Shown: positions 22,712 to 37,238 of the stretch, in pieces
Layout of the letters: each line of letters starts with the position of its first letter
How positions within the stretch are numbered: position 1 is the first letter of the stretch
Sequence record: PZ386946.1
Length of the DNA stretch: 44,504 nucleotides
From: a phage
Strand: one strand, 5' to 3'
Made by a program: the position numbers and the translations under genes
Notes under the pieces: generated by a model
Databases searched by the model: none
What the model saw: only the letters and a program-made list of their open reading frames with translations
Told to the model about the DNA's origin: nothing

Positions 22712-23134
22712 ATGCCACACGTAATTACTGGTCAGATCCGCAAGGCACCATTCACTAAGGAAGGCAGCAACAATAACGGGCGATGGAAAATGTACGCAGT
22801 AGAACTATCTGAACGCATGAAGATTAGAAATCAGAATGGCGAGGATGAGACGGTTTACAGTAACTACCGATCCACTTTCTTCGCAAAGGAAAATGTCATG
22901 GCATGGTATGACGATGCGTTCCAGGAAGGTAAGGTTGTTTCAATTTCTGCTGACACACTTCACTTGTCGTCACGCCAGGGTAATGACGGGAATGTTTACG
23001 TCACCGCTGAAATGATACGACCTCAGTTGCAATTCAGCCAGCGTGAACCAGCGCAGCAGCATCAGAAGCAACCGCAACCGCAGCAGCAGCAACCGCAGAA
23101 GCAAAGTCAATTCAACGATGACATCCCATTCTGA
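22712..23134 (+). CDS. ssb: single-stranded DNA-binding protein
   Basis: 140 aa; OB-fold-like N-terminal region, Gln/Pro-rich linker and acidic C-terminal tail ending DDIPF as in bacterial/phage SSB. Confidence 0.8.
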   Translation: MPHVITGQIRKAPFTKEGSNNNGRWKMYAVELSERMKIRNQNGEDETVYSNYRSTFFAKENVMAWYDDAFQEGKVVSISADTLHLSSRQGNDGNVYVTAEMIRPQLQFSQREPAQQHQKQPQPQQQQPQKQSQFNDDIPF

Positions 23135-25823: not shown

Positions 25824-25854
25824 CAGGTATAAAAAAACCTCCCGAAGGAGGTTA
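25824..25854 (-). terminator. rho-independent terminator after primase gene (minus strand)
   Basis: hairpin CCTCC-CGAA-GGAGG followed on minus strand by TTTTTTTATAC. Confidence 0.55.
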
Positions 25855-26775
25855 GTCTAGTAATTCACTTGCTTTGTATATTCGTTTTCTTATTCCTGAC
25901 TTAAAAAAATTATCATCATTTGGCATTACCACATCAAGATCGCGATCGTCAGCAACGGCGAGTAAATCAAAAGCGTGGCGAGTACAAGCGACGCGTAACT
26001 TGTAGTTTCTAAGCGCGTAAGCAACCATTTCCATGTTGTAACTGGAGTGGCAAACAAGCACACAGCGGTTACCTGTAGCAATGTGAACGCGATAGCCGTC
26101 AATGAAATTATCGACCAGATAAGCGTACTCATCATCTTTAAAGGAACCAATAACAGCAATAGACTGGCGAGTATAATCTTTTGCAGCATAACTAACATCT
26201 CCCTCTTCATTGATAAACATTACATTGCACATTTCTTCTGATATACCATCACTATAGGCCATAAAACAAGGCACTGCGTGTATTAGTTCGCCTGATTTTG
26301 CCCTGCCAACATCAAAACCAAACTCACTATAGATACCCTCGTATATACTGAGTGGAGTTGATGCTACTCTTTCCGTCCTTTCCATTATCTCTAAGCATCT
26401 TTCGTGGTCAATCTGTGCTCCCATTTTATAGAGCTGGGTTCTTGATGCTTTCTTGTTTGCCTTATTAACCACTTCTACAGGGATAAGGTTTAACCACTCA
26501 CCGAGAATATCAATGCATTCACTGAATGACTCCCCTCTCATCTTTTGAACCCAGACAATTCCATCTCCCGAGCCGCACTGGTTGCAGATAATGCCACCGT
26601 CACCCTCCTCGCTAACCTTATTGGTCCATCTTGCGCGATCGTTGCCGCCGCAATAAATGCACGGCTGATGCTTCTTAGTCTGGAAGAACTTTGGGTCAGC
26701 GCCGCAGATATTGATAAGCGCCTTGTCCCACAGGCCCCGCATTCTTGGTAAAACCTCTTTCTTATCGTAGTGCAT
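25852..26775 (-). CDS. DNA primase (zinc finger + TOPRIM-like)
   Basis: 307 aa; N-terminal CIYCGG...CNQCGSG zinc-binding motif; acidic DxD block AVADDRDLDVV consistent with TOPRIM. Confidence 0.7.
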   Translation of the reverse strand: MHYDKKEVLPRMRGLWDKALINICGADPKFFQTKKHQPCIYCGGNDRARWTNKVSEEGDGGIICNQCGSGDGIVWVQKMRGESFSECIDILGEWLNLIPVEVVNKANKKASRTQLYKMGAQIDHERCLEIMERTERVASTPLSIYEGIYSEFGFDVGRAKSGELIHAVPCFMAYSDGISEEMCNVMFINEEGDVSYAAKDYTRQSIAVIGSFKDDEYAYLVDNFIDGYRVHIATGNRCVLVCHSSYNMEMVAYALRNYKLRVACTRHAFDLLAVADDRDLDVVMPNDDNFFKSGIRKRIYKASELLD

Positions 26776-26832: not shown

Positions 26833-27306
26833 TTACTCTTTAGCTTTTCGTGCTGCCTCATTGGCGGCTTTAATTTTGCGCCAGGATCGGCACTCAGGCT
26901 TAGTAGCCAGCTCAGCTTCTGTTACCACGCGCAGCATATGACGCTTTTTGCATCGCAGCGTAAGCGGCTTTCCGTTGCCATCGAATTGCAGATCCGGTCG
27001 GCAGAATGTGGCTCGAAAACCTTCTCCATTTCTTTTGTAGTAGTTGTGTGACAGCTGAGCTCCACGTGCAGAAATCATACCACGCTTAAACCATTCTTCT
27101 ACAGCCTGAGGAGTTACCTTTAACTGCTTCGCAATGTTTGCCTTTGTGCCGAAGAAATCAAGAACCATCTCTAGCCGTGCGCGTAGCCCGGCTCTTACTT
27201 CATCTTTTAAAACGTAGTAACCTGAAGGTCGTTTTCGTTGTTTTTTGTCTTCAGTGCGGACGGTTCCGTTATTGCCGTTAATGGTGCGCTTGTCAACTGC
27301 ATTCAT
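26833..27306 (-). CDS. HTH DNA-binding protein (putative transcriptional regulator)
   Basis: start ATG 27306 with GAGGT RBS (track start 27342); helix-turn-helix-like IAKQLKVTPQAVEEWFKRG; basic termini. Confidence 0.5.
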   Translation of the reverse strand: MNAVDKRTINGNNGTVRTEDKKQRKRPSGYYVLKDEVRAGLRARLEMVLDFFGTKANIAKQLKVTPQAVEEWFKRGMISARGAQLSHNYYKRNGEGFRATFCRPDLQFDGNGKPLTLRCKKRHMLRVVTEAELATKPECRSWRKIKAANEAARKAKE

Positions 27307-27407
27307 TTCATTACCTCGATAGCATTTTTTGTTAAAAGTCATTCTGATTTGATGGTAGTATTGTACTCAATTAAACGCTACAAGACAATTTTTATAGGAA
27401 TTTAGAT

Positions 27408-29402
27408 ATGTTGCCTATCGAGAAGCTGATTGCCAACTTCGATAAAGAAAGAATCAAACAGATCCAGAAGGATTACCAGTTTGGCGAGATAACCCCTTAC
27501 GAGTTCCAGTGCGTTACATTTGATGCAATTGGGAAGGCTATTGGCAAGTATGAGGCTCCATTTATCGCGGACCTCTCCGTGTCTGCTGGTAAGACAATCA
27601 TTCTTGCTATGATTGGTAAGCGCATGGAGCAGCTTGGGCTTCCTTATATGGTTCTTTCTCGACAGTCAGAGATAATCAGCCAGAACTCAGAAGAGCTTCG
27701 TAATTTCGGCATCCGTAACAGCGTGTATTGCGCTGGTCTTAACGTTAAATCAGTTTACTACCCAACTATAGTGGCCAGTGAGGGTACAGCGGCTAATGGC
27801 TTGTTTAAGGGGCTTGGTGACTATGTCCCTGCCGTTATCGCTATCGATGAGTGCCACATGCTTGATGCTATGGATATCGTGGAAGCCGAGGAGAACGAAG
27901 AAACATTTGAGCAAATGAGCACAAAGAAAGGAGAGATGGTTTTTAAGGATGGCGTAAATACAGGGTTGCTTGGCACTGGTCGTGCACAGTACACGCTGAT
28001 TATCACCGAGATGAAACGTCGATGCCGCGAGAAGTACGGTCGCGAGCTTCGTATCTTTGGCCTAACTGGTAGCCCGTATCGCAACAACGATCATATCGTC
28101 GTTAGTAACCCAAACATCCGTGGATTCTGGCGAAAGACGGTAATTCAGGTTCCAACCAATTACCTGGTTGATTTGGGATTTGTTGTGCCAACAGTTTACG
28201 GAGAGGTTGGTGATTTGGGTTACGACCTTTCAGAGTTTGCGCCTGACGGAAGCGATGGTGTGAAAGATTTCAGCAAGAAAGAAATGGATGCGATGCAGGA
28301 AAAAATTCATCAAAACCAGTCCATGACTCAAAAGATTATGCAGTTCGCAGCCAAGTTTATGGAAACTCGTAACGCAGCACTAGTAACTTGCTCAGGCAAG
28401 CGGCATTGCGAGGAAGCAGCCGCGTCGCTTCCTGAGGGTGTAACCTGGGCTATAGTAACTGACTCTACCGGTGAGAAAAAGCGTCGTGAGATTCTTTCTG
28501 ACGCAGCTGAAGGTAAGTATAAATTCATCTTTCAGATTGGTTGCCTCACAACCGGCGTGAACGTTCCGCCATGGGACACGTCAATAATTCTTCGCAAGGT
28601 TGGTAGCATCACGTTACTGATTCAGCTTTTGGGGCGAGGTATGCGAATTCTTAAGAAGAGGCATAAGGAAATGGGAATGGTTAAGGATGATCACGTGGTG
28701 CTGGACTTCGCTGGTACTCTTGATGACATGGCGGAATTGTACTTTGACCCAATCATAGAGGAAGTGCAGGACCAGAAATTTAAGTCTTCACGCAAAGGCG
28801 GCGATGAGCCAAGAATATGTCCGGCCTGTAGTTACGAGAACTCTCCTTTTGCTCGTCGTTGCAATAACGTAATTGACGGGAAGCGTTGTGAGCATTTTTT
28901 TACATTTCGCTTATGTGAAGATATAGAGGACCCGCAGACAAAAGTTACTATTAAGAAGGGTTGTGGTGAAAAGAATGATATCGCCGCTAAAAACTGCCGC
29001 TGCTGCGGAGAGATGCTTATTGACCCCAACGCAAAATTGTCTGGAAAGATGTATCGACAAGGTGATTGGTTGAGAGTTTACGGATTCAGCATTGGATTAA
29101 CTAAAAACCAAACTGGAATCGTTGCTCGCTATGAAATCATGTCGCATAGTGGGGATAGGTTTGTTGCTTACGAAACTTTCTTCCCAGAGAGTGACCATCG
29201 AGTTTGCTCTGTTAAGTGGAAGGCATTTTGCCAGGCGCACATCCAGAACAAAACGGAGGCATTTCGCATAGGAAGACTTCGAAACGCCAAAATGATTATG
29301 AATAACGCAAGTCAATTTCGTGAGCCAATGCGCGTGACTCATAGAAAGAACCAGAAGGGGCAGGACATTATTGCAAACAAATCTTTTACTATGGAGGATT
29401 GA
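27408..29402 (+). CDS. SF2 ATP-dependent helicase (DExH) with C-terminal Cys-rich zinc-finger-like region
   Basis: 664 aa; Walker A SAGKT, DExH box IDECHML, C-terminal CPAC...C...CxxC cluster. Confidence 0.8.
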   Translation: MLPIEKLIANFDKERIKQIQKDYQFGEITPYEFQCVTFDAIGKAIGKYEAPFIADLSVSAGKTIILAMIGKRMEQLGLPYMVLSRQSEIISQNSEELRNFGIRNSVYCAGLNVKSVYYPTIVASEGTAANGLFKGLGDYVPAVIAIDECHMLDAMDIVEAEENEETFEQMSTKKGEMVFKDGVNTGLLGTGRAQYTLIITEMKRRCREKYGRELRIFGLTGSPYRNNDHIVVSNPNIRGFWRKTVIQVPTNYLVDLGFVVPTVYGEVGDLGYDLSEFAPDGSDGVKDFSKKEMDAMQEKIHQNQSMTQKIMQFAAKFMETRNAALVTCSGKRHCEEAAASLPEGVTWAIVTDSTGEKKRREILSDAAEGKYKFIFQIGCLTTGVNVPPWDTSIILRKVGSITLLIQLLGRGMRILKKRHKEMGMVKDDHVVLDFAGTLDDMAELYFDPIIEEVQDQKFKSSRKGGDEPRICPACSYENSPFARRCNNVIDGKRCEHFFTFRLCEDIEDPQTKVTIKKGCGEKNDIAAKNCRCCGEMLIDPNAKLSGKMYRQGDWLRVYGFSIGLTKNQTGIVARYEIMSHSGDRFVAYETFFPESDHRVCSVKWKAFCQAHIQNKTEAFRIGRLRNAKMIMNNASQFREPMRVTHRKNQKGQDIIANKSFTMED

Positions 29403-29824
29403 TTTTGAATATCACAGACAAAGAAGATTACATTGAGTTTTACCCTGGTCCAGTTAAGTCATGCCCTAAAGAGGATGACGAACAAATCTTTTGCTCTGAC
29501 TGGGTTAAGTACAACTATCCGAAGATTGTTTATTGGCACACTGTTAATGAATCGATGAAGAGCATTGGTCAAGCAAGAAAAGACCAGGCTAAGGGGCTTC
29601 TCAAAGGCGTATCAGACTGCATGTTTTTGATACCTGAATCCGTGCGAGGAAGGTATCAATTTGGCGCAATAGAGATAAAGAGAGCAGGAAAAACTCAAGC
29701 AAGCCCAGTCAGCAGTGAACAGAAGTCCTTCCTGAAAAGCGTAAGAGAATCAGGAGGCTTCGCGGCTGTTGCCTACGGTCGCGAGGGTTTTCTGGCAGCA
29801 TTTAAAGAAATGATTTCAAAATAG
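29399..29824 (+). CDS. VRR-NUC domain nuclease (putative)
   Basis: PD-(D/E)XK-like D...EIK (SDCMFLIPE...AIEIKRAG); non-ATG start (TTG 29399 or 29405, GGAGG RBS); overlaps helicase stop. Confidence 0.55.
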   Translation: MILNITDKEDYIEFYPGPVKSCPKEDDEQIFCSDWVKYNYPKIVYWHTVNESMKSIGQARKDQAKGLLKGVSDCMFLIPESVRGRYQFGAIEIKRAGKTQASPVSSEQKSFLKSVRESGGFAAVAYGREGFLAAFKEMISK

Positions 29825-29864
29825 CACGAATTGCTAAATATTAATCGGTGAGGTGGTGTATTAT
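29820..29864 (+). promoter_or_regulatory. bipartite motif copy
   Basis: overlaps stop TAG of VRR-NUC gene; TATTATCACTTCATCGAAACGA downstream. Confidence 0.5.
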
Positions 29865-29896
29865 CACTTCATCGAAACGAATAAGGAGATAAAGAA

Positions 29897-30105: not shown

Positions 30106-30150
30106 AATAGCACGAATTGCTAAAGACGATTTTAAAAGATGGGGTATAGT
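30106..30150 (+). promoter_or_regulatory. bipartite motif copy
   Basis: AATAGCACGAATTGCTAAAG, 22 nt, TATAGTTACTCTATCGAAACGAAACG. Confidence 0.5.
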
Positions 30151-30186
30151 TACTCTATCGAAACGAAACGCAGAGAGAGAAACAAA

Positions 30187-32668: not shown

Positions 32669-33142
32669 ATGATTTACGTATTTGATATCGATGGAACTAT
32701 AGCTAATAATGAGCATAGAAGTCACCTCTTGCCATTAAGCGACCTTCACTTGACTTCAAGTTGGAAGGATTACAATAAAGCCTGTTCTGGAGACTCACCA
32801 ATAATTCCAATGATAAAAATGATGAATGCTTTAGCTGAGTCATCTCAAGTTTACATAATGACCTCAAGAAGTGATGAAGTTGAATGGAGAACCCTTGAGT
32901 GGCTTCAGGATAATGATGTTGAATATGATTCAATACGCATGAGAAGCAGACATGACAACCGAAAGGATTACTTAATTAAAGAGGAGTGGCTAAATAATCT
33001 TTGCGACGGAAAAAAGGAAGAGATAGTTATATTTGAAGATAACCCTCAGGTTATAAAACACTTAAGAAATTGTGGATATGCAGTTATGGCCGTATGTGAA
33101 TATGAAGAGCTACCTAAAGATTGCGAATCTCACGGAGAATGA
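32669..33142 (+). CDS. HAD-family phosphatase (T4 Pnk 3'-phosphatase-like / nucleotidase-like)
   Basis: 157 aa; N-terminal DxDGT motif (FDIDGTIA), further blocks (IMTSRSDE, RHDNRKDYLIKEE, IFEDNPQVI) recalled as similar to the T4 polynucleotide kinase phosphatase domain. Confidence 0.65.
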   Translation: MIYVFDIDGTIANNEHRSHLLPLSDLHLTSSWKDYNKACSGDSPIIPMIKMMNALAESSQVYIMTSRSDEVEWRTLEWLQDNDVEYDSIRMRSRHDNRKDYLIKEEWLNNLCDGKKEEIVIFEDNPQVIKHLRNCGYAVMAVCEYEELPKDCESHGE

Positions 33143-33144
33143 AA

Positions 33145-33699
33145 ATGACTAAATTATTTATCCTTAACGGCCCCGCTGGAGTTGGCAAGGACACTATAGC
33201 GGATATCATGGTTGAGACTGGTGTTGTTGATGGGAAAGTTTCATTCAAGTCACCAATGTTCGATGTAGCCAAGGGGATGCTATCAAAGGATGAATTTGAT
33301 TGGTTTATTGAGAACTACAACAACCGAGACGAGAAAGAAAAGAATCAAGAGATACTTGGCGGTAAAAGCATTCGAGAATTCATGATTTGGATTAGCGAGT
33401 CTGTAATGAAGCCAGTCTTTGGTGATTATGTTTTCGGTAAAAGGCTCGCCCAGTCACTTGGTGATGGTTGCTACATTTGCGCTGACGGTGGGTTTGCTAG
33501 CGAGATTAAGCCACTGATCGACACTGGTGTTGAGGTCACGTTAATCAGGTTGCATAGGGAAGGGTACACATTTTATGGCGATAGTCGCTCATACATTCAC
33601 GGGGTGTGTGCAAGAGAGATTGATGTTCATGTTGTTGATTGTGATATTAATGGAACATCATCATTGGTAAGGCACGTAATAAATAGCACGAATTGCTAA
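33145..33699 (+). CDS. P-loop nucleotide kinase (dNMP kinase-like), paralog 1
   Basis: ATG 33145 (track 33121 is TTG); Walker A LNGPAGVGKDT; overall block pattern recalled as resembling T4/T5 dNMP kinases; C-terminus reads through the motif (ends INSTNC). Confidence 0.65.
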   Translation: MTKLFILNGPAGVGKDTIADIMVETGVVDGKVSFKSPMFDVAKGMLSKDEFDWFIENYNNRDEKEKNQEILGGKSIREFMIWISESVMKPVFGDYVFGKRLAQSLGDGCYICADGGFASEIKPLIDTGVEVTLIRLHREGYTFYGDSRSYIHGVCAREIDVHVVDCDINGTSSLVRHVINSTNC

Positions 33700-34777: not shown

Positions 34778-35142
34778 TAATGTGCGTAGCTTTATATGGA
34801 TGTTCAGCAACATCTGCTCTGACTGGTTTGATTGGCAGTAAGCCAGAGATTAGCGCTCAAGCAGGTGCCGAGAACAATAAGGTTGGTGTTGGGTTAACGA
34901 ACAAGGTTGACTCCAGCAACTCCAGTGAAACCACGGTTAAGGATTCTAAGGTTGGGTCACTTGATAGCTCTAGCGGGAAAAAGACTGCTGACAACTCTAT
35001 TAAGGCCTCAACAATTACCGCCGAAAAGATTGAAATTACCAATAACGAATCATCAGCGCTTCCGTGGGTTGGAACAGGAGCTATGGGGTTGCTTGTTCTG
35101 ATTCTCCCGGCCTTAATCTTAAGACGTAAAAAAGCCTCCTAA
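34753..35142 (+). CDS. unimolecular spanin (T1 gp11-like)
   Basis: 129 aa; N-terminal lipoprotein signal with lipobox LYGCS, Ser/Thr-rich periplasmic region, C-terminal TM helix plus RRKK; embedded in endolysin 3' end. Confidence 0.7.
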   Translation: MLKRIAALVMCVALYGCSATSALTGLIGSKPEISAQAGAENNKVGVGLTNKVDSSNSSETTVKDSKVGSLDSSSGKKTADNSIKASTITAEKIEITNNESSALPWVGTGAMGLLVLILPALILRRKKAS

Positions 35143-35150
35143 TGGAGGCT
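35125..35150. terminator. bidirectional hairpin terminator between lysis cassette and minus-strand operon
   Basis: AAAAAGCCTCC-TAAT-GGAGGCTATATTTTT. Confidence 0.6.
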
Positions 35151-35156
35151 ATATTT

Positions 35157-35492
35157 TTAGCTAAATAACTCGTCGTCAGTCATTGTTCCTATGTTCATCA
35201 TCTCTTTTATGTACTTGCTCTCATACCCGCTAAGCGCCTCGAAATTGAAATCAAACGGCCTCTTCAAGCTACCCTTGCTAACAAACTCACCACACTTACC
35301 ATCAATGTATCCCGCACTAAGCATCTTCGCGCAAAACTCTTTTGAAGCCGCGCTGCAAAACTCTCGATGTGATAAACCCGCCGCCTTGCTGAATCTCTGA
35401 GAGTCCTTATGTTGGTATATGAATCGCGCCAAATGCTGGCGCGTGAAAAAGCTGTAAGATTCGCAAAAACGGTATATATCCAGAATAAACAT
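35157..35492 (-). CDS. hypothetical protein
   Basis: 111 aa, GAGG RBS; last gene of minus-strand accessory operon before bidirectional terminator. Confidence 0.45.
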   Translation of the reverse strand: MFILDIYRFCESYSFFTRQHLARFIYQHKDSQRFSKAAGLSHREFCSAASKEFCAKMLSAGYIDGKCGEFVSKGSLKRPFDFNFEALSGYESKYIKEMMNIGTMTDDELFS

Positions 35493-35580
35493 TTCAACCT
35501 CAATGTAGCATAATTGCTAAAATATATGGCCCAACCAAGCAAAGAGCAACAATAACCAACCAGTATTTATTTAGCATAGA

Positions 35581-37164
35581 TCACCCCAATAGTCTTGGAT
35601 TAATGTAAACTTTATCACCAATCAGGCAAGTATAGTTTTTCTCATCAAGCATTGGCAGCAAGTGATCTTTAATCTTCGTCATTACTCCCGCTTGAGCCTC
35701 GAACGGCTTAACCTTTCGAGCCGCTTCATACAACGAACGAATGCCTACTACTCCTTTCCCGTTTTTGCCTTGCTTAATCAGAATGTCAATCAGCTTGTTC
35801 ATCTCGGCATTGTCTCCAGCGTGACCAGCCGCGTTGGCAGATGACAAATAAGTCTTGCTAAGTTCCTGGAACATAATTACAGCTTCCTGCATTGTATCAA
35901 GCTCAATTTCTCTCGACTTCTGAGGGCTACCGCCATTTGGGTTGAACCAGTTGCGCACAGTGTGAAGAACGGCCGCAATCCTGATTGCCTGCTTATCGAA
36001 CTTACCAAGCGCGCCGCGCAACATTGTGTGGGAATACTTACCGCCGTCCGCAAGGTGAGGTTCCATTTCCTGACGCGCGCGGTTGAGATATTTCATTGCT
36101 GAATTACTAACTGTCAACTTAACTTCTTGCTCATTCATTATCTCGTGAACTAAACGGAAGTAATCAGCCTTCAACCCGCCATCAATTGGTTCATAAGTCG
36201 ATTCGCCATTTTCATCAACGAATACACGCTCGCCCAGGAATGACTTTTCACGTACAAGCAGGAAACGCTCAGATACACCGATACCACGCGCGCCAGCGTT
36301 CATGATAGCGTTGATTGTCTCATCCTGTGCAATTACAGAGATGCAACCCATAGCAACGAAACTCATGTTGTTTTCTGCGTTCGCACGCGCGATAGATACG
36401 TTACCCGCATCCCATGCTTTAAGCACAAGCTCACTGTTCGTTTTCTTTGATCCGTCACCATAGGTCATGCCTAATAGTGAGTTAACGCTAGTTGCTTCGT
36501 CAGAAATTACCGCGAAGCTTCCCTGGCGGTTGTTTATTCGCGCAAGACCTTCAGGTGTGGTATCGGACACGGGGAAAACGATATCGCACAGCTTTTCCAG
36601 TTTTTCCTCTAGCTCTTCTTTTTCCTCGAAAAGAGAAGCCATCTCTGACGGAGATTTTTCCTGCTTCATCTCTTTGGATAACGCAGATAGTTTAGCCATG
36701 ATTTTCTTGCGCTCACGCTTTCGCACTTCATTCAGTCTCTCAGTCTCGGCAATCATTGGTGCAATTGAAAGTGAGTTAATGGCTGACTTACCAGTCGATG
36801 GAGGCTGACTTGTAACTACGTACAGAGACGTAGGCTGCTGAGTTCCATGATACTCAACTGTAAAGCGTCCCAGCATGGCAGCGGAAATACACCCCAGGAA
36901 GTGCATATAAGCTGAAGACTCAGGGAACTGAACCGAGCGAGCGATGTTAGATGAGAGTTTTCCGACAATATCAACATCATTGCCTAGTGAGATTACGGGA
37001 TACTTGTCATTAGCCGCATCAATCTCGACTGGCGCTTTCCAGAATGATTGAGACTGGCGATAGCCATTAGCATTGATAGCGACGCGCAGTGGTGGGAGGT
37101 TGTCTGCGGCAGCGATTGCCATAACCTGTTCAACAGATAGTTTATCTTCGTTGAAATCAAACAT
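35581..37164 (-). CDS. DUF3987-like P-loop NTPase with C-terminal wHTH-like domain (putative replication/recombination ATPase)
   Basis: 527 aa; Walker A-like VTSQPPSTGKSA, Walker B-like FAVISDEATS, central coiled-coil, C-terminal GKNGKGVVGIRSLYEAARKV; N- and C-terminal ends shared with ORF 39916..40461. Confidence 0.55.
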   Translation of the reverse strand: MFDFNEDKLSVEQVMAIAAADNLPPLRVAINANGYRQSQSFWKAPVEIDAANDKYPVISLGNDVDIVGKLSSNIARSVQFPESSAYMHFLGCISAAMLGRFTVEYHGTQQPTSLYVVTSQPPSTGKSAINSLSIAPMIAETERLNEVRKRERKKIMAKLSALSKEMKQEKSPSEMASLFEEKEELEEKLEKLCDIVFPVSDTTPEGLARINNRQGSFAVISDEATSVNSLLGMTYGDGSKKTNSELVLKAWDAGNVSIARANAENNMSFVAMGCISVIAQDETINAIMNAGARGIGVSERFLLVREKSFLGERVFVDENGESTYEPIDGGLKADYFRLVHEIMNEQEVKLTVSNSAMKYLNRARQEMEPHLADGGKYSHTMLRGALGKFDKQAIRIAAVLHTVRNWFNPNGGSPQKSREIELDTMQEAVIMFQELSKTYLSSANAAGHAGDNAEMNKLIDILIKQGKNGKGVVGIRSLYEAARKVKPFEAQAGVMTKIKDHLLPMLDEKNYTCLIGDKVYINPRLLG

Positions 37165-37238
37165 TACTTCTCTCCGTATTGTTTCTGAGCGGCCATTATA
37201 TCAACGACCGCTTATAATTCATTATAAATTTGTGCTAT

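What the first reader, a model, noticed from the sequence alone, without database searches (positions are those of the whole stretch)
35581..37164. DUF3987-like P-loop NTPase (527 aa) in a minus-strand accessory operon
The protein has a Walker A-like PPSTGKS and Walker B-like VISDEA, a central charged coiled coil and a C-terminal wHTH-like tail. The N-terminal segment and P-loop arrangement resemble DUF3987-type proteins that accompany primases in satellites and mobile elements; this is recalled from memory and not verified. The phage already has a separate primase and an SF2 helicase, so this is an additional ATPase of unclear role. It could be a replication initiator, a helicase loader, or a defence/anti-defence NTPase.
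Basis: partly seen in the sequence, partly recalled or inferred. Interest (0 to 1): 0.7.

Follow-up and report, generated by a model that had tools for sequence, protein, structure and literature searches.

The report
Phage MCM-like replicative helicase (DUF3987)
This 527-residue gene is the conserved MCM-like (DUF3987) DNA helicase of T1-like coliphages, already annotated and described in the literature, so it is an ordinary replication gene and not a mysterious extra ATPase.

The parts
35581..37164 (-). Complete CDS of the DUF3987 / SF6 MCM-like helicase (527 aa plus stop)
   Evidence: ORF list; Pfam PF13148 E 6.2e-42 over residues 81-430; PHROG 2373 'DNA helicase' E 1.1e-258 over the full length; AF2 model pLDDT 89.4, pTM 0.87
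37033..37164 (-). N-terminal three-helix module (residues 1-44), shared with the 181-aa paralogue
   Evidence: Helices 11-21, 25-33 and 36-41; 74% identical to residues 3-44 of ORF 39916..40461
36784..36807 (-). Walker A / P-loop, QPPSTGKS (residues 120-127)
   Evidence: Q120, P121, P122, S123, G125 and K126 are invariant in 22 homologues; it sits between strand 115-119 and helix 126-166
36592..36789 (-). Long charged helical hairpin inserted directly after the P-loop (residues 126-191)
   Evidence: Model helices 126-166 and 172-191; 14 K/R and 15 D/E in residues 135-200; I did not identify an equivalent in MCM (inference)
36496..36516 (-). Walker B strand, FAVISDE (residues 217-223)
   Evidence: Strand 217-221 followed by D222 and E223; S221 and E223 are invariant; D222 is Ala in 4 of 22 homologues
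36355..36402 (-). Predicted pre-sensor-1 beta-hairpin (residues 255-270) with invariant R260
   Evidence: Strands 255-258 and 267-270 lie between Walker B and the sensor-1 strand; R260 is invariant; its role as the DNA-contacting hairpin is inferred from MCM
36265..36348 (-). Sensor-1 strand with IAQDE (residues 273-282) and the SER motif (298-300) carrying the putative arginine finger R300
   Evidence: I278, A279, E282, E299 and R300 are invariant; strand 273-279, helix 281-292 and strand 301-305; the equivalence of 'SERF' to the MCM 'SRF' arginine-finger motif is inferred from position, not from a residue-level superposition
35815..36204 (-). Helical lid region (residues about 321-450) with invariant R383, G384, G387, K388, D390 and K391 (candidate sensor 2)
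   Evidence: Helices 329-446; invariant columns
35584..35814 (-). C-terminal winged-helix domain (residues about 451-527), shared with the 181-aa paralogue
35133..35150 (.). Bidirectional terminator-like hairpin that closes the minus-strand operon and the plus-strand lysis cassette
   Evidence: Pattern scan: 7-bp stem with 5 GC pairs and T-runs on both strands
35157..35492 (-). Conserved 111-aa gene immediately downstream of the helicase in the same operon (PHROG 2794; T1 ST10 homologue)
   Evidence: PHROG E 1.9e-56; 51% identical to T1 44177..44509; function unknown
25852..26775 (-). Phage DNA primase with an N-terminal zinc ribbon, the likely partner of the helicase
   Evidence: Pfam Zn_Ribbon_Prim E 2.3e-9; PHROG 510 'DNA primase' E 1.9e-95; the partnership is inferred
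22712..23134 (+). Single-strand DNA-binding protein
   Evidence: PHROG 44 E 1.5e-24
39916..40461 (+). Motor-less paralogue (181 aa): helicase N-module plus winged helix plus a unique C-terminal tail

Best explanation
The gene encodes the phage's replicative-type ring helicase, a member of the DUF3987 family (superfamily 6, AAA+, MCM-related). The proposed mechanism is as follows. Subunits assemble into a ring through the AAA+ domain. ATP binds at the P-loop (K126) and Walker B (D222/E223) of one subunit and is completed in trans by R300 of the neighbouring subunit. Hydrolysis moves a central beta-hairpin (residues 255-270, R260) along single-stranded DNA and unwinds the phage duplex. The N-terminal helices and the C-terminal winged helix form a DNA-binding or partner-binding module that positions the motor. 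The helicase works with the separately encoded TOPRIM primase (25852..26775) and SSB (22712..23134), and with the host DNA polymerase III, because no phage polymerase was found among the ORFs scanned. What is shown here: family membership, intact and invariant ATPase motifs, an MCM-like AAA+ fold, a winged helix, strong purifying selection, near-universal presence in the T1-like phage records that match, and the absence of any other ring helicase among the ORFs scanned. What is inferred: hexamer formation, the roles assigned to R260, R300 and R383, the partnership with primase and host polymerase, and the polarity of unwinding. On polarity, AgaPH moves 5'->3' and, to my knowledge, MCM moves 3'->5', so polarity cannot be predicted.
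Against: There is no biochemical or genetic evidence for this protein or for any T1-like orthologue. I found none in the searchable literature. Unlike most DUF3987 genes, it is neither fused to nor adjacent to a primase: the primase lies about 9 kb away. D222 of Walker B is Ala in 4 of 22 homologues, which is unusual for an active AAA+ site. No sequence-level link to MCM was obtained here; Pfam and PDB sequence searches found nothing beyond DUF3987. The canonical MCM N-terminal OB/Zn tier is absent and no helix-2 insert is evident. From memory and unverified, a 1980 study reported that T1 DNA synthesis needs host 'elongation' dna genes. If those include dnaB, the phage protein might not be the fork helicase.
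Confidence: 0.8

Rival explanations
1. It is an initiator-helicase. The same protein first recognises the phage origin through its winged-helix/N-terminal module, melts it and loads itself, as SV40 large T antigen, papillomavirus E1, P4 alpha and the SaPI Rep proteins do, and then acts as the fork helicase. This extends the best explanation and does not exclude it.
Against: No iteron array or other origin-like repeat cluster was found next to the gene or elsewhere in the window. The winged helix is a generic fold that also mediates protein-protein contacts. A predicted transcriptional regulator (26833..27342) next to the primase could supply origin recognition instead.
Confidence: 0.3
2. It is an AAA+ remodeller or loader and not a translocating helicase. 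In this model it recruits or loads the host DnaB, or remodels the host replisome, onto phage DNA, and the host enzyme does the unwinding.
Confidence: 0.1
3. It is a defence or anti-defence NTPase, an accessory gene that counters or mimics host immunity and is not needed for replication.
Against: There are no PADLOC matches. The gene is full-length in 906 phage records. dN/dS of 0.004-0.035 is the opposite of an arms-race gene. MCM matches score about twice as high as the defence ATPases.
Confidence: 0.03

Closest known systems
DUF3987 (PF13148) phage and mobile-element helicases, classed as superfamily 6 by Kazlauskas, Krupovic and Venclovas 2016 (PMC4889955); T1 ST9 and JeanPiccard 'putative helicase' are orthologues
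   Same: Full-length Pfam match, the same Walker A and B motifs and a C-terminal winged helix. It is 98.9% identical to the JeanPiccard protein and 57% to T1 ST9, in the same genomic position after the lysis cassette.
   Different: Nothing of substance. It is an ordinary member. Unlike many DUF3987 genes, it is not fused to or adjacent to its primase.
AgaPH, the PriCT-DUF3987 helicase of a Seonamhaeicola mobile element (PMC11724360)
   Same: Same Pfam family, conserved Walker A/B motifs and a small C-terminal domain. AgaPH is oligomeric, dependent on ATP or dATP, and binds its primase-polymerase.
   Different: AgaPH has an N-terminal PriCT domain and partners an AEP primase-polymerase encoded next door. 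The phage protein has a short helical N-terminus with no Pfam match and a distant TOPRIM-type primase.
Archaeal and eukaryotic MCM helicases
   Different: There is no N-terminal OB-fold/zinc tier and no evident helix-2 insert. There is a 66-residue charged helical hairpin after the P-loop. Structure-aligned sequence identity is 11-18%. No sequence-level match was obtained here.
Rep/Cch helicases (DUF927) of staphylococcal pathogenicity islands and SCCmec
   Different: They belong to a different Pfam family and are clearly more distant than MCM. The SaPI origin iterons, which as I recall lie next to rep, have no counterpart found here.
N4 gp43, the 715-aa protein I took to be the 'dns' replication protein described in PMC4889955 (that identification is my assumption)
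   Same: Kazlauskas et al. describe N4 dns as essential for replication and list it among the phage SF6 helicases. Walker A, the TPE-like motif and Walker B align in register with this protein.
   Different: The relationship is very distant. Pfam DUF3987 scores 24.2 bits, below the 27-bit cutoff, and hhalign probability is 4.8%. The N4 protein carries a C-terminal primase-associated region (PriCT_1).

Membership tests
DUF3987 (PF13148) | Match to the Pfam model above its gathering score | tested here: met
   144.5 bits against a cutoff of 27, residues 81-430 on model positions 3-349 of 364; 22 of 22 homologues also match
DUF3987 (PF13148) | Conserved Walker A (GxxxxGK[ST], with variation) and Walker B (DExx), as described for the family in PMC11724360 | tested here: met
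   QPPSTGKS at 120-127 and SDEA at 221-224; G125, K126 and E223 are invariant; D222 is Ala in 4 of 22 homologues
DUF3987 (PF13148) | [quoted passage not shown] | tested here: met
DUF3987 (PF13148) | Fusion to, or a position immediately downstream of, an AEP or DnaG-type primase (frequent but not obligatory, PMC4889955) | tested here: not met
   The primase gene is at 25852..26775, about 9 kb away with the lysis cassette and other genes between. A primase is nevertheless present in the genome.
DUF3987 (PF13148) | ATP-dependent DNA unwinding | not testable with these tools
   Shown only for AgaPH (PMC11724360)
Superfamily 6 / MCM-like AAA+ helicases | AAA+ fold whose closest structural relatives are MCM proteins | tested here: met
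Superfamily 6 / MCM-like AAA+ helicases | Pre-sensor-1 beta-hairpin carrying a conserved basic residue | tested here: met
   Strands 255-258 and 267-270 lie between Walker B and sensor 1; R260 is invariant. DNA contact is inferred.
Superfamily 6 / MCM-like AAA+ helicases | Trans-acting arginine finger in an SRF-type motif before strand 5 | tested here: inconclusive
   S298-E299-R300-F301, with E299 and R300 invariant, directly precedes strand 301-305. The equivalence was judged by position only, because no residue-level superposition or oligomer model was available.
Superfamily 6 / MCM-like AAA+ helicases | Helix-2 insert | tested here: not met
   The helix between strand 2 and the Walker B strand (204-214) is short and uninterrupted in the model. 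Instead, a long hairpin (126-191) extends the helix after the P-loop.
Canonical MCM (PF00493 with the N-terminal tier) | N-terminal OB-fold/zinc domain, and a sequence match to the MCM model | tested here: not met
   The N-terminus (1-100) is all-helical. No MCM Pfam hit appears even at E <= 1. It is therefore MCM-like, not an MCM.
Superfamily 6 / MCM-like AAA+ helicases | Ring (hexamer) formation | not testable with these tools
   Only single-chain prediction was available
SF4 DnaB / T7 gp4-type (RecA-fold) replicative helicases | RecA-type core with DnaB-family motifs | tested here: not met
   No DnaB-family Pfam, PHROG or NCBIfam match. The fold is AAA+ with a lid domain.
Known anti-phage defence NTPases (PADLOC-DB) | Match to any defence-system protein model | tested here: not met
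   No family at E <= 0.01

The most novel reading that the evidence does not exclude
The helicase's composite terminal module (N-terminal helices plus the ORC/Cdc6-like winged helix) has been copied into a stand-alone, motor-less 181-aa protein (39916..40461). This protein is translationally coupled to a DUF7174 gene at the head of the opposite early operon, next to the probable genome end. It could be a dedicated regulator of the helicase: an origin-binding or partner-binding competitor or adaptor that times or limits helicase loading, comparable to the truncated E2 repressors of papillomaviruses. Alternatively it could be a decoy that shields the helicase's recognition surface from a host sensor. 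Either role would be a previously undescribed control layer for SF6-type phage replication.
Probability: 0.2. Interest if true: 0.55.

Novelty: already known. Interest (0 to 1): 0.15.

Why it matters
For the finding itself the consequences are small. It corrects the reading 'extra ATPase of unclear role' to 'the phage's replicative-type helicase'. It also shows that the T1-like replication set found here is a DUF3987 helicase, a TOPRIM primase and SSB, presumably with the host polymerase. One published re-annotation (TLS, PMC11447400) still overlooks this by naming the SF2 helicase as the replication helicase. T1-like phages are common laboratory contaminants and therapy candidates, and their replication has had almost no biochemical study, so the helicase is a reasonable target for such work. 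The motor-less paralogue is the only element here that could lead to something new.

Tried and rejected
1. Sequence searches of the PDB with the protein and with a 22-sequence profile found nothing meaningful. No DUF3987 structure appears to be solved, and the MCM link is visible only at the fold level.

2. Pfam at E <= 1 on all 22 homologues gave DUF3987 only, with no MCM or other AAA family.

3. NCBIfam and PADLOC gave no hits for the helicase.

4. A comparison with N4 gp43 (presumed dns) was too weak to use (hhalign probability 4.8%).

5. A search for origin iterons found only two-copy chance-level repeats, a (TTA)9 run and 3.6 copies of GATATTG.

6. A test for concerted evolution or gene conversion between the helicase and its mini-paralogue in 7 genomes was negative. 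Same-genome identity equals cross-genome identity.

7. Literature searches for genetics, host dna-gene dependence or defence-escape mutations of the T1-like helicase found nothing relevant.

8. The supplement of Kazlauskas 2016 is not held.

10. My first guess that the window is a Dhillonvirus was wrong. The closest records are Drexlerviridae, subfamily Braunvirinae.

11. The 113-aa plus-strand ORF inside the gene (36467..36808) was dismissed without a separate test. It is a serine-rich ORF on the antisense strand of a gene under strong purifying selection.

Full report
**Observation.** The minus-strand ORF 35581..37164 encodes 527 aa from an ATG preceded by a GGAG ribosome-binding site. PPSTGKS is at residues 121-127 and VISDEA at 219-224. 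The segment 135-200 has 14 K/R and 15 D/E in 66 residues.

**Context.** The window is a T1-like siphovirus, not a Dhillonvirus as I first guessed. The closest records are JulesPiccard, JeanPiccard, BEK1-1 and the Veterinaerplatzvirus phages, all Drexlerviridae, subfamily Braunvirinae. Gene order is collinear with T1. The lysis cassette is followed on the opposite strand by a small conserved gene, the helicase (T1 ST9, annotated 'DNA helicase') and several small genes. Next comes a non-coding stretch of about 700 bp that in T1 corresponds to the physical genome ends, and then a plus-strand early operon.

**Family.**
- Pfam gives DUF3987 at E 6.2e-42 (144.5 bits, cutoff 27), and PHROG 2373 'DNA helicase' covers the full length at E 1.1e-258.
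- A protein search scored 160 homologues, named 'DNA helicase', 'putative helicase' or 'DUF3987 domain-containing protein' where they are named at all.
- tblastn finds the protein full-length in 906 of 922 matching phage records. The best match is 98.9% identical (JeanPiccard, 'putative helicase').
- A published genome paper on a related Pantoea phage lists the same gene set: SF2 helicase, zinc-ribbon primase, DUF3987 putative helicase, VRR-NUC, ERF and a DUF3799 exonuclease (PMC8004638).

**What the family is.** Kazlauskas et al. 2016 placed the bacteriophage DUF3987 proteins in helicase superfamily 6. They linked one member to MCM at 98% HHsearch probability, noted the C-terminal winged helix and the frequent association with AEP or DnaG primases, and concluded that these proteins act as replicative helicases (PMC4889955). 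A 2025 study purified a PriCT-DUF3987 protein (AgaPH). [quoted passage not shown]

**Structure.** An AlphaFold2 model built on 22 homologues has mean pLDDT 89.4 and pTM 0.87.
- The top 50 Foldseek hits are all MCM subunits.
- No PDB entry matches by sequence, so no structure of this family appears to be solved.

**Motifs.** Reading the model's secondary structure against the invariant columns of the alignment gives the following layout:
- strand 115-119, then the P-loop Q120-S127;
- a helix extended into a 66-residue charged hairpin (126-191);
- a short strand 2, and the invariant T203-P204-E205 at the start of helix 204-214;
- strand 217-221 ending in D222-E223 (Walker B);
- a beta-hairpin 255-270 with invariant R260, in the position of the pre-sensor-1 hairpin;
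- strand 273-279 ending in IAQDE (sensor-1 position);
- S298-E299-R300-F301 directly before strand 301-305, which I read as the counterpart of the MCM 'SRF' arginine finger;
- a helical lid with invariant R383, G384, G387, K388, D390 and K391, followed by the winged helix.

The functional assignments for R260, R300 and R383 are inferences from position. Three features differ from MCM proper: there is no OB/zinc N-terminal tier, no evident helix-2 insert, and an extra helical hairpin. D222 is Ala in 4 of 22 homologues, which I cannot explain.

**Is it an 'additional' ATPase?** No.
- The 664-aa SF2 helicase (27408..29402) resembles RadD/YejH (NCBIfam E 1.8e-54, below the equivalog cutoff) and is followed by a VRR-NUC nuclease gene. 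This is a repair or recombination arrangement.
- The ORFs scanned also include a zinc-ribbon primase, an SSB, an ERF recombinase, a PDDEXK exonuclease, a repair exonuclease, a polynucleotide kinase and two dNMP-kinase-like proteins. None is a DnaB-type helicase or a DNA polymerase. T1 and TLS are reported to lack a polymerase (PMC11447400).
- The DUF3987 protein is therefore the only ring-helicase candidate found.
- Nei-Gojobori dN/dS between six genomes is 0.004-0.035. It is 0.011-0.017 for the two window pairs with unsaturated dS and 0.004 for BUCT-XGG-1 against 50EP. This fits a core enzyme, not an arms-race gene.
- PADLOC finds nothing.

**Best explanation and rivals.** The best explanation is a replicative-type SF6 ring helicase working with the phage primase, the SSB and host Pol III (confidence 0.8). 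It may additionally recognise the origin through its winged helix (0.3, not exclusive), although I found no iterons. A loader or remodeller role (0.1) and a defence role (0.03) are poorly supported. The main caveat is the lack of any experiment on a T1-like orthologue. I also recall, unverified, that T1 DNA synthesis depends on some host elongation genes.

**Beyond the finding: a motor-less paralogue.** ORF 39916..40461 (+, 181 aa, PHROG 7327) is a paralogue that keeps residues 1-42 (74% identity) and 465-527 (54%) of the helicase and lacks everything between them.
- The compact fold suggests that the helicase's N-terminal helices and winged helix form one module, with the motor inserted between them. 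This is an inference, because I had no coordinates.
- Its start codon overlaps the stop codon of a DUF7174 gene (39395..39916). The pair keeps this order in Braunvirinae, Rogunavirinae and Nouzillyvirus and is absent from T1.
- Many deposited genomes begin 400-900 bp upstream of the DUF7174 gene, as T1's physical end does. These are therefore probably the first two genes at one genome end.
- Across 7 genomes, helicase-to-mini identity is the same within a genome as between genomes (N module 70.7% against 70.5%; C module 50.0% against 50.0%). This indicates no gene conversion. The helicases are 91-98% identical to the window's, while the minis are 52-78% identical.
- Its function is unknown. 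A regulator or competitor of helicase loading, or a decoy, are speculative options.

**Verdict.** The gene is already known and annotated. Interest is low (0.15).

Noticed in passing
window 39916..40461 (+): A 181-aa paralogue of the helicase keeps only its N-terminal helices (74% identity) and its winged helix (54% identity), and adds a unique tail of about 50 aa. The whole AAA+ motor is missing. It is conserved (310 clusters, 106 phage records) and under purifying selection, but it evolves about ten times faster than the helicase. There is no gene conversion with the helicase, and it is absent from T1. Its best fold matches are ORC/Cdc6 winged-helix domains.
   Followed up: yes
window 39395..39916 (+): A DUF7174 gene (Pfam E 4.8e-51) whose stop codon overlaps the start codon of the mini-paralogue (TAATG). 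The two genes co-occur and keep this order in Braunvirinae, Rogunavirinae and Nouzillyvirus. The gene diverges quickly (32-93% identity across 139 full-length records). Its function is unknown.
   Followed up: partly
window 38695..39394: The largest non-coding stretch seen in the region examined, lying between two divergent early operons. It contains a (TTA)9 run (39073-39100), 3.6 copies of GATATTG (39119-39144) and several short inverted repeats. Promoter-like sites face both ways (minus strand 38829->38802, plus strand 39326->39354). By synteny with T1, and because many related records start just upstream of the DUF7174 gene, it probably holds the physical genome end or pac region. No iterons were seen.
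   Followed up: partly
window 37189..37211 (-): Just upstream of the helicase start lies a perfect extended -10 element (TGATATAAT, 37195..37203). It sits in the loop of a GCGGTC/GGCCGC inverted repeat. The arrangement is conserved in Braunvirinae relatives. Other genera have a GC-rich hairpin at the same place, which suggests separate transcriptional control of the helicase within the operon.
   Followed up: partly
window 35500..35577 (-): An unlisted 25-codon ORF (MLNKYWLVIVALCLVGPYILAIMLH) starts 3 nt after the helicase stop codon. It is strongly hydrophobic and could encode a small membrane peptide. Its conservation was not checked.
   Followed up: no
alignment A1, column of window residue D222: The Walker B aspartate is alanine (ISAEA) in 4 of 22 homologues (P0095, P0100, P0117, P0119), while the following glutamate is invariant. 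This is unusual for an active AAA+ site and is unexplained.
   Followed up: no
window 33121..33699 (+) and 40656..41270 (+): Two dNMP-kinase-like P-loop genes both match PHROG 139 and PHROG 31701. One sits before the lysis cassette and the other in the plus-strand early operon.
   Followed up: no
window 43593..43670 (+): A tRNA-Arg (anticodon TCT) lies just upstream of the small terminase gene, as in the related phage vB_EcoS-2004IV.
   Followed up: partly
window 29820..29881 and 30106..30167: A 62-nt direct repeat (74% identity) with conserved ends (AATAGCACGAATTGCTAAA ... ATCGAAACGAA) lies in the region after the VRR-NUC gene. It may be a repeated regulatory element.
   Followed up: no
PMC11447400 (TLS re-annotation): This published re-annotation of a T1-like phage discusses the primase and the neighbouring SF2 helicase as the replication initiators. 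The passages retrieved do not mention the DUF3987 helicase, so its role is not uniformly recognised in the phage-genome literature.
   Followed up: partly
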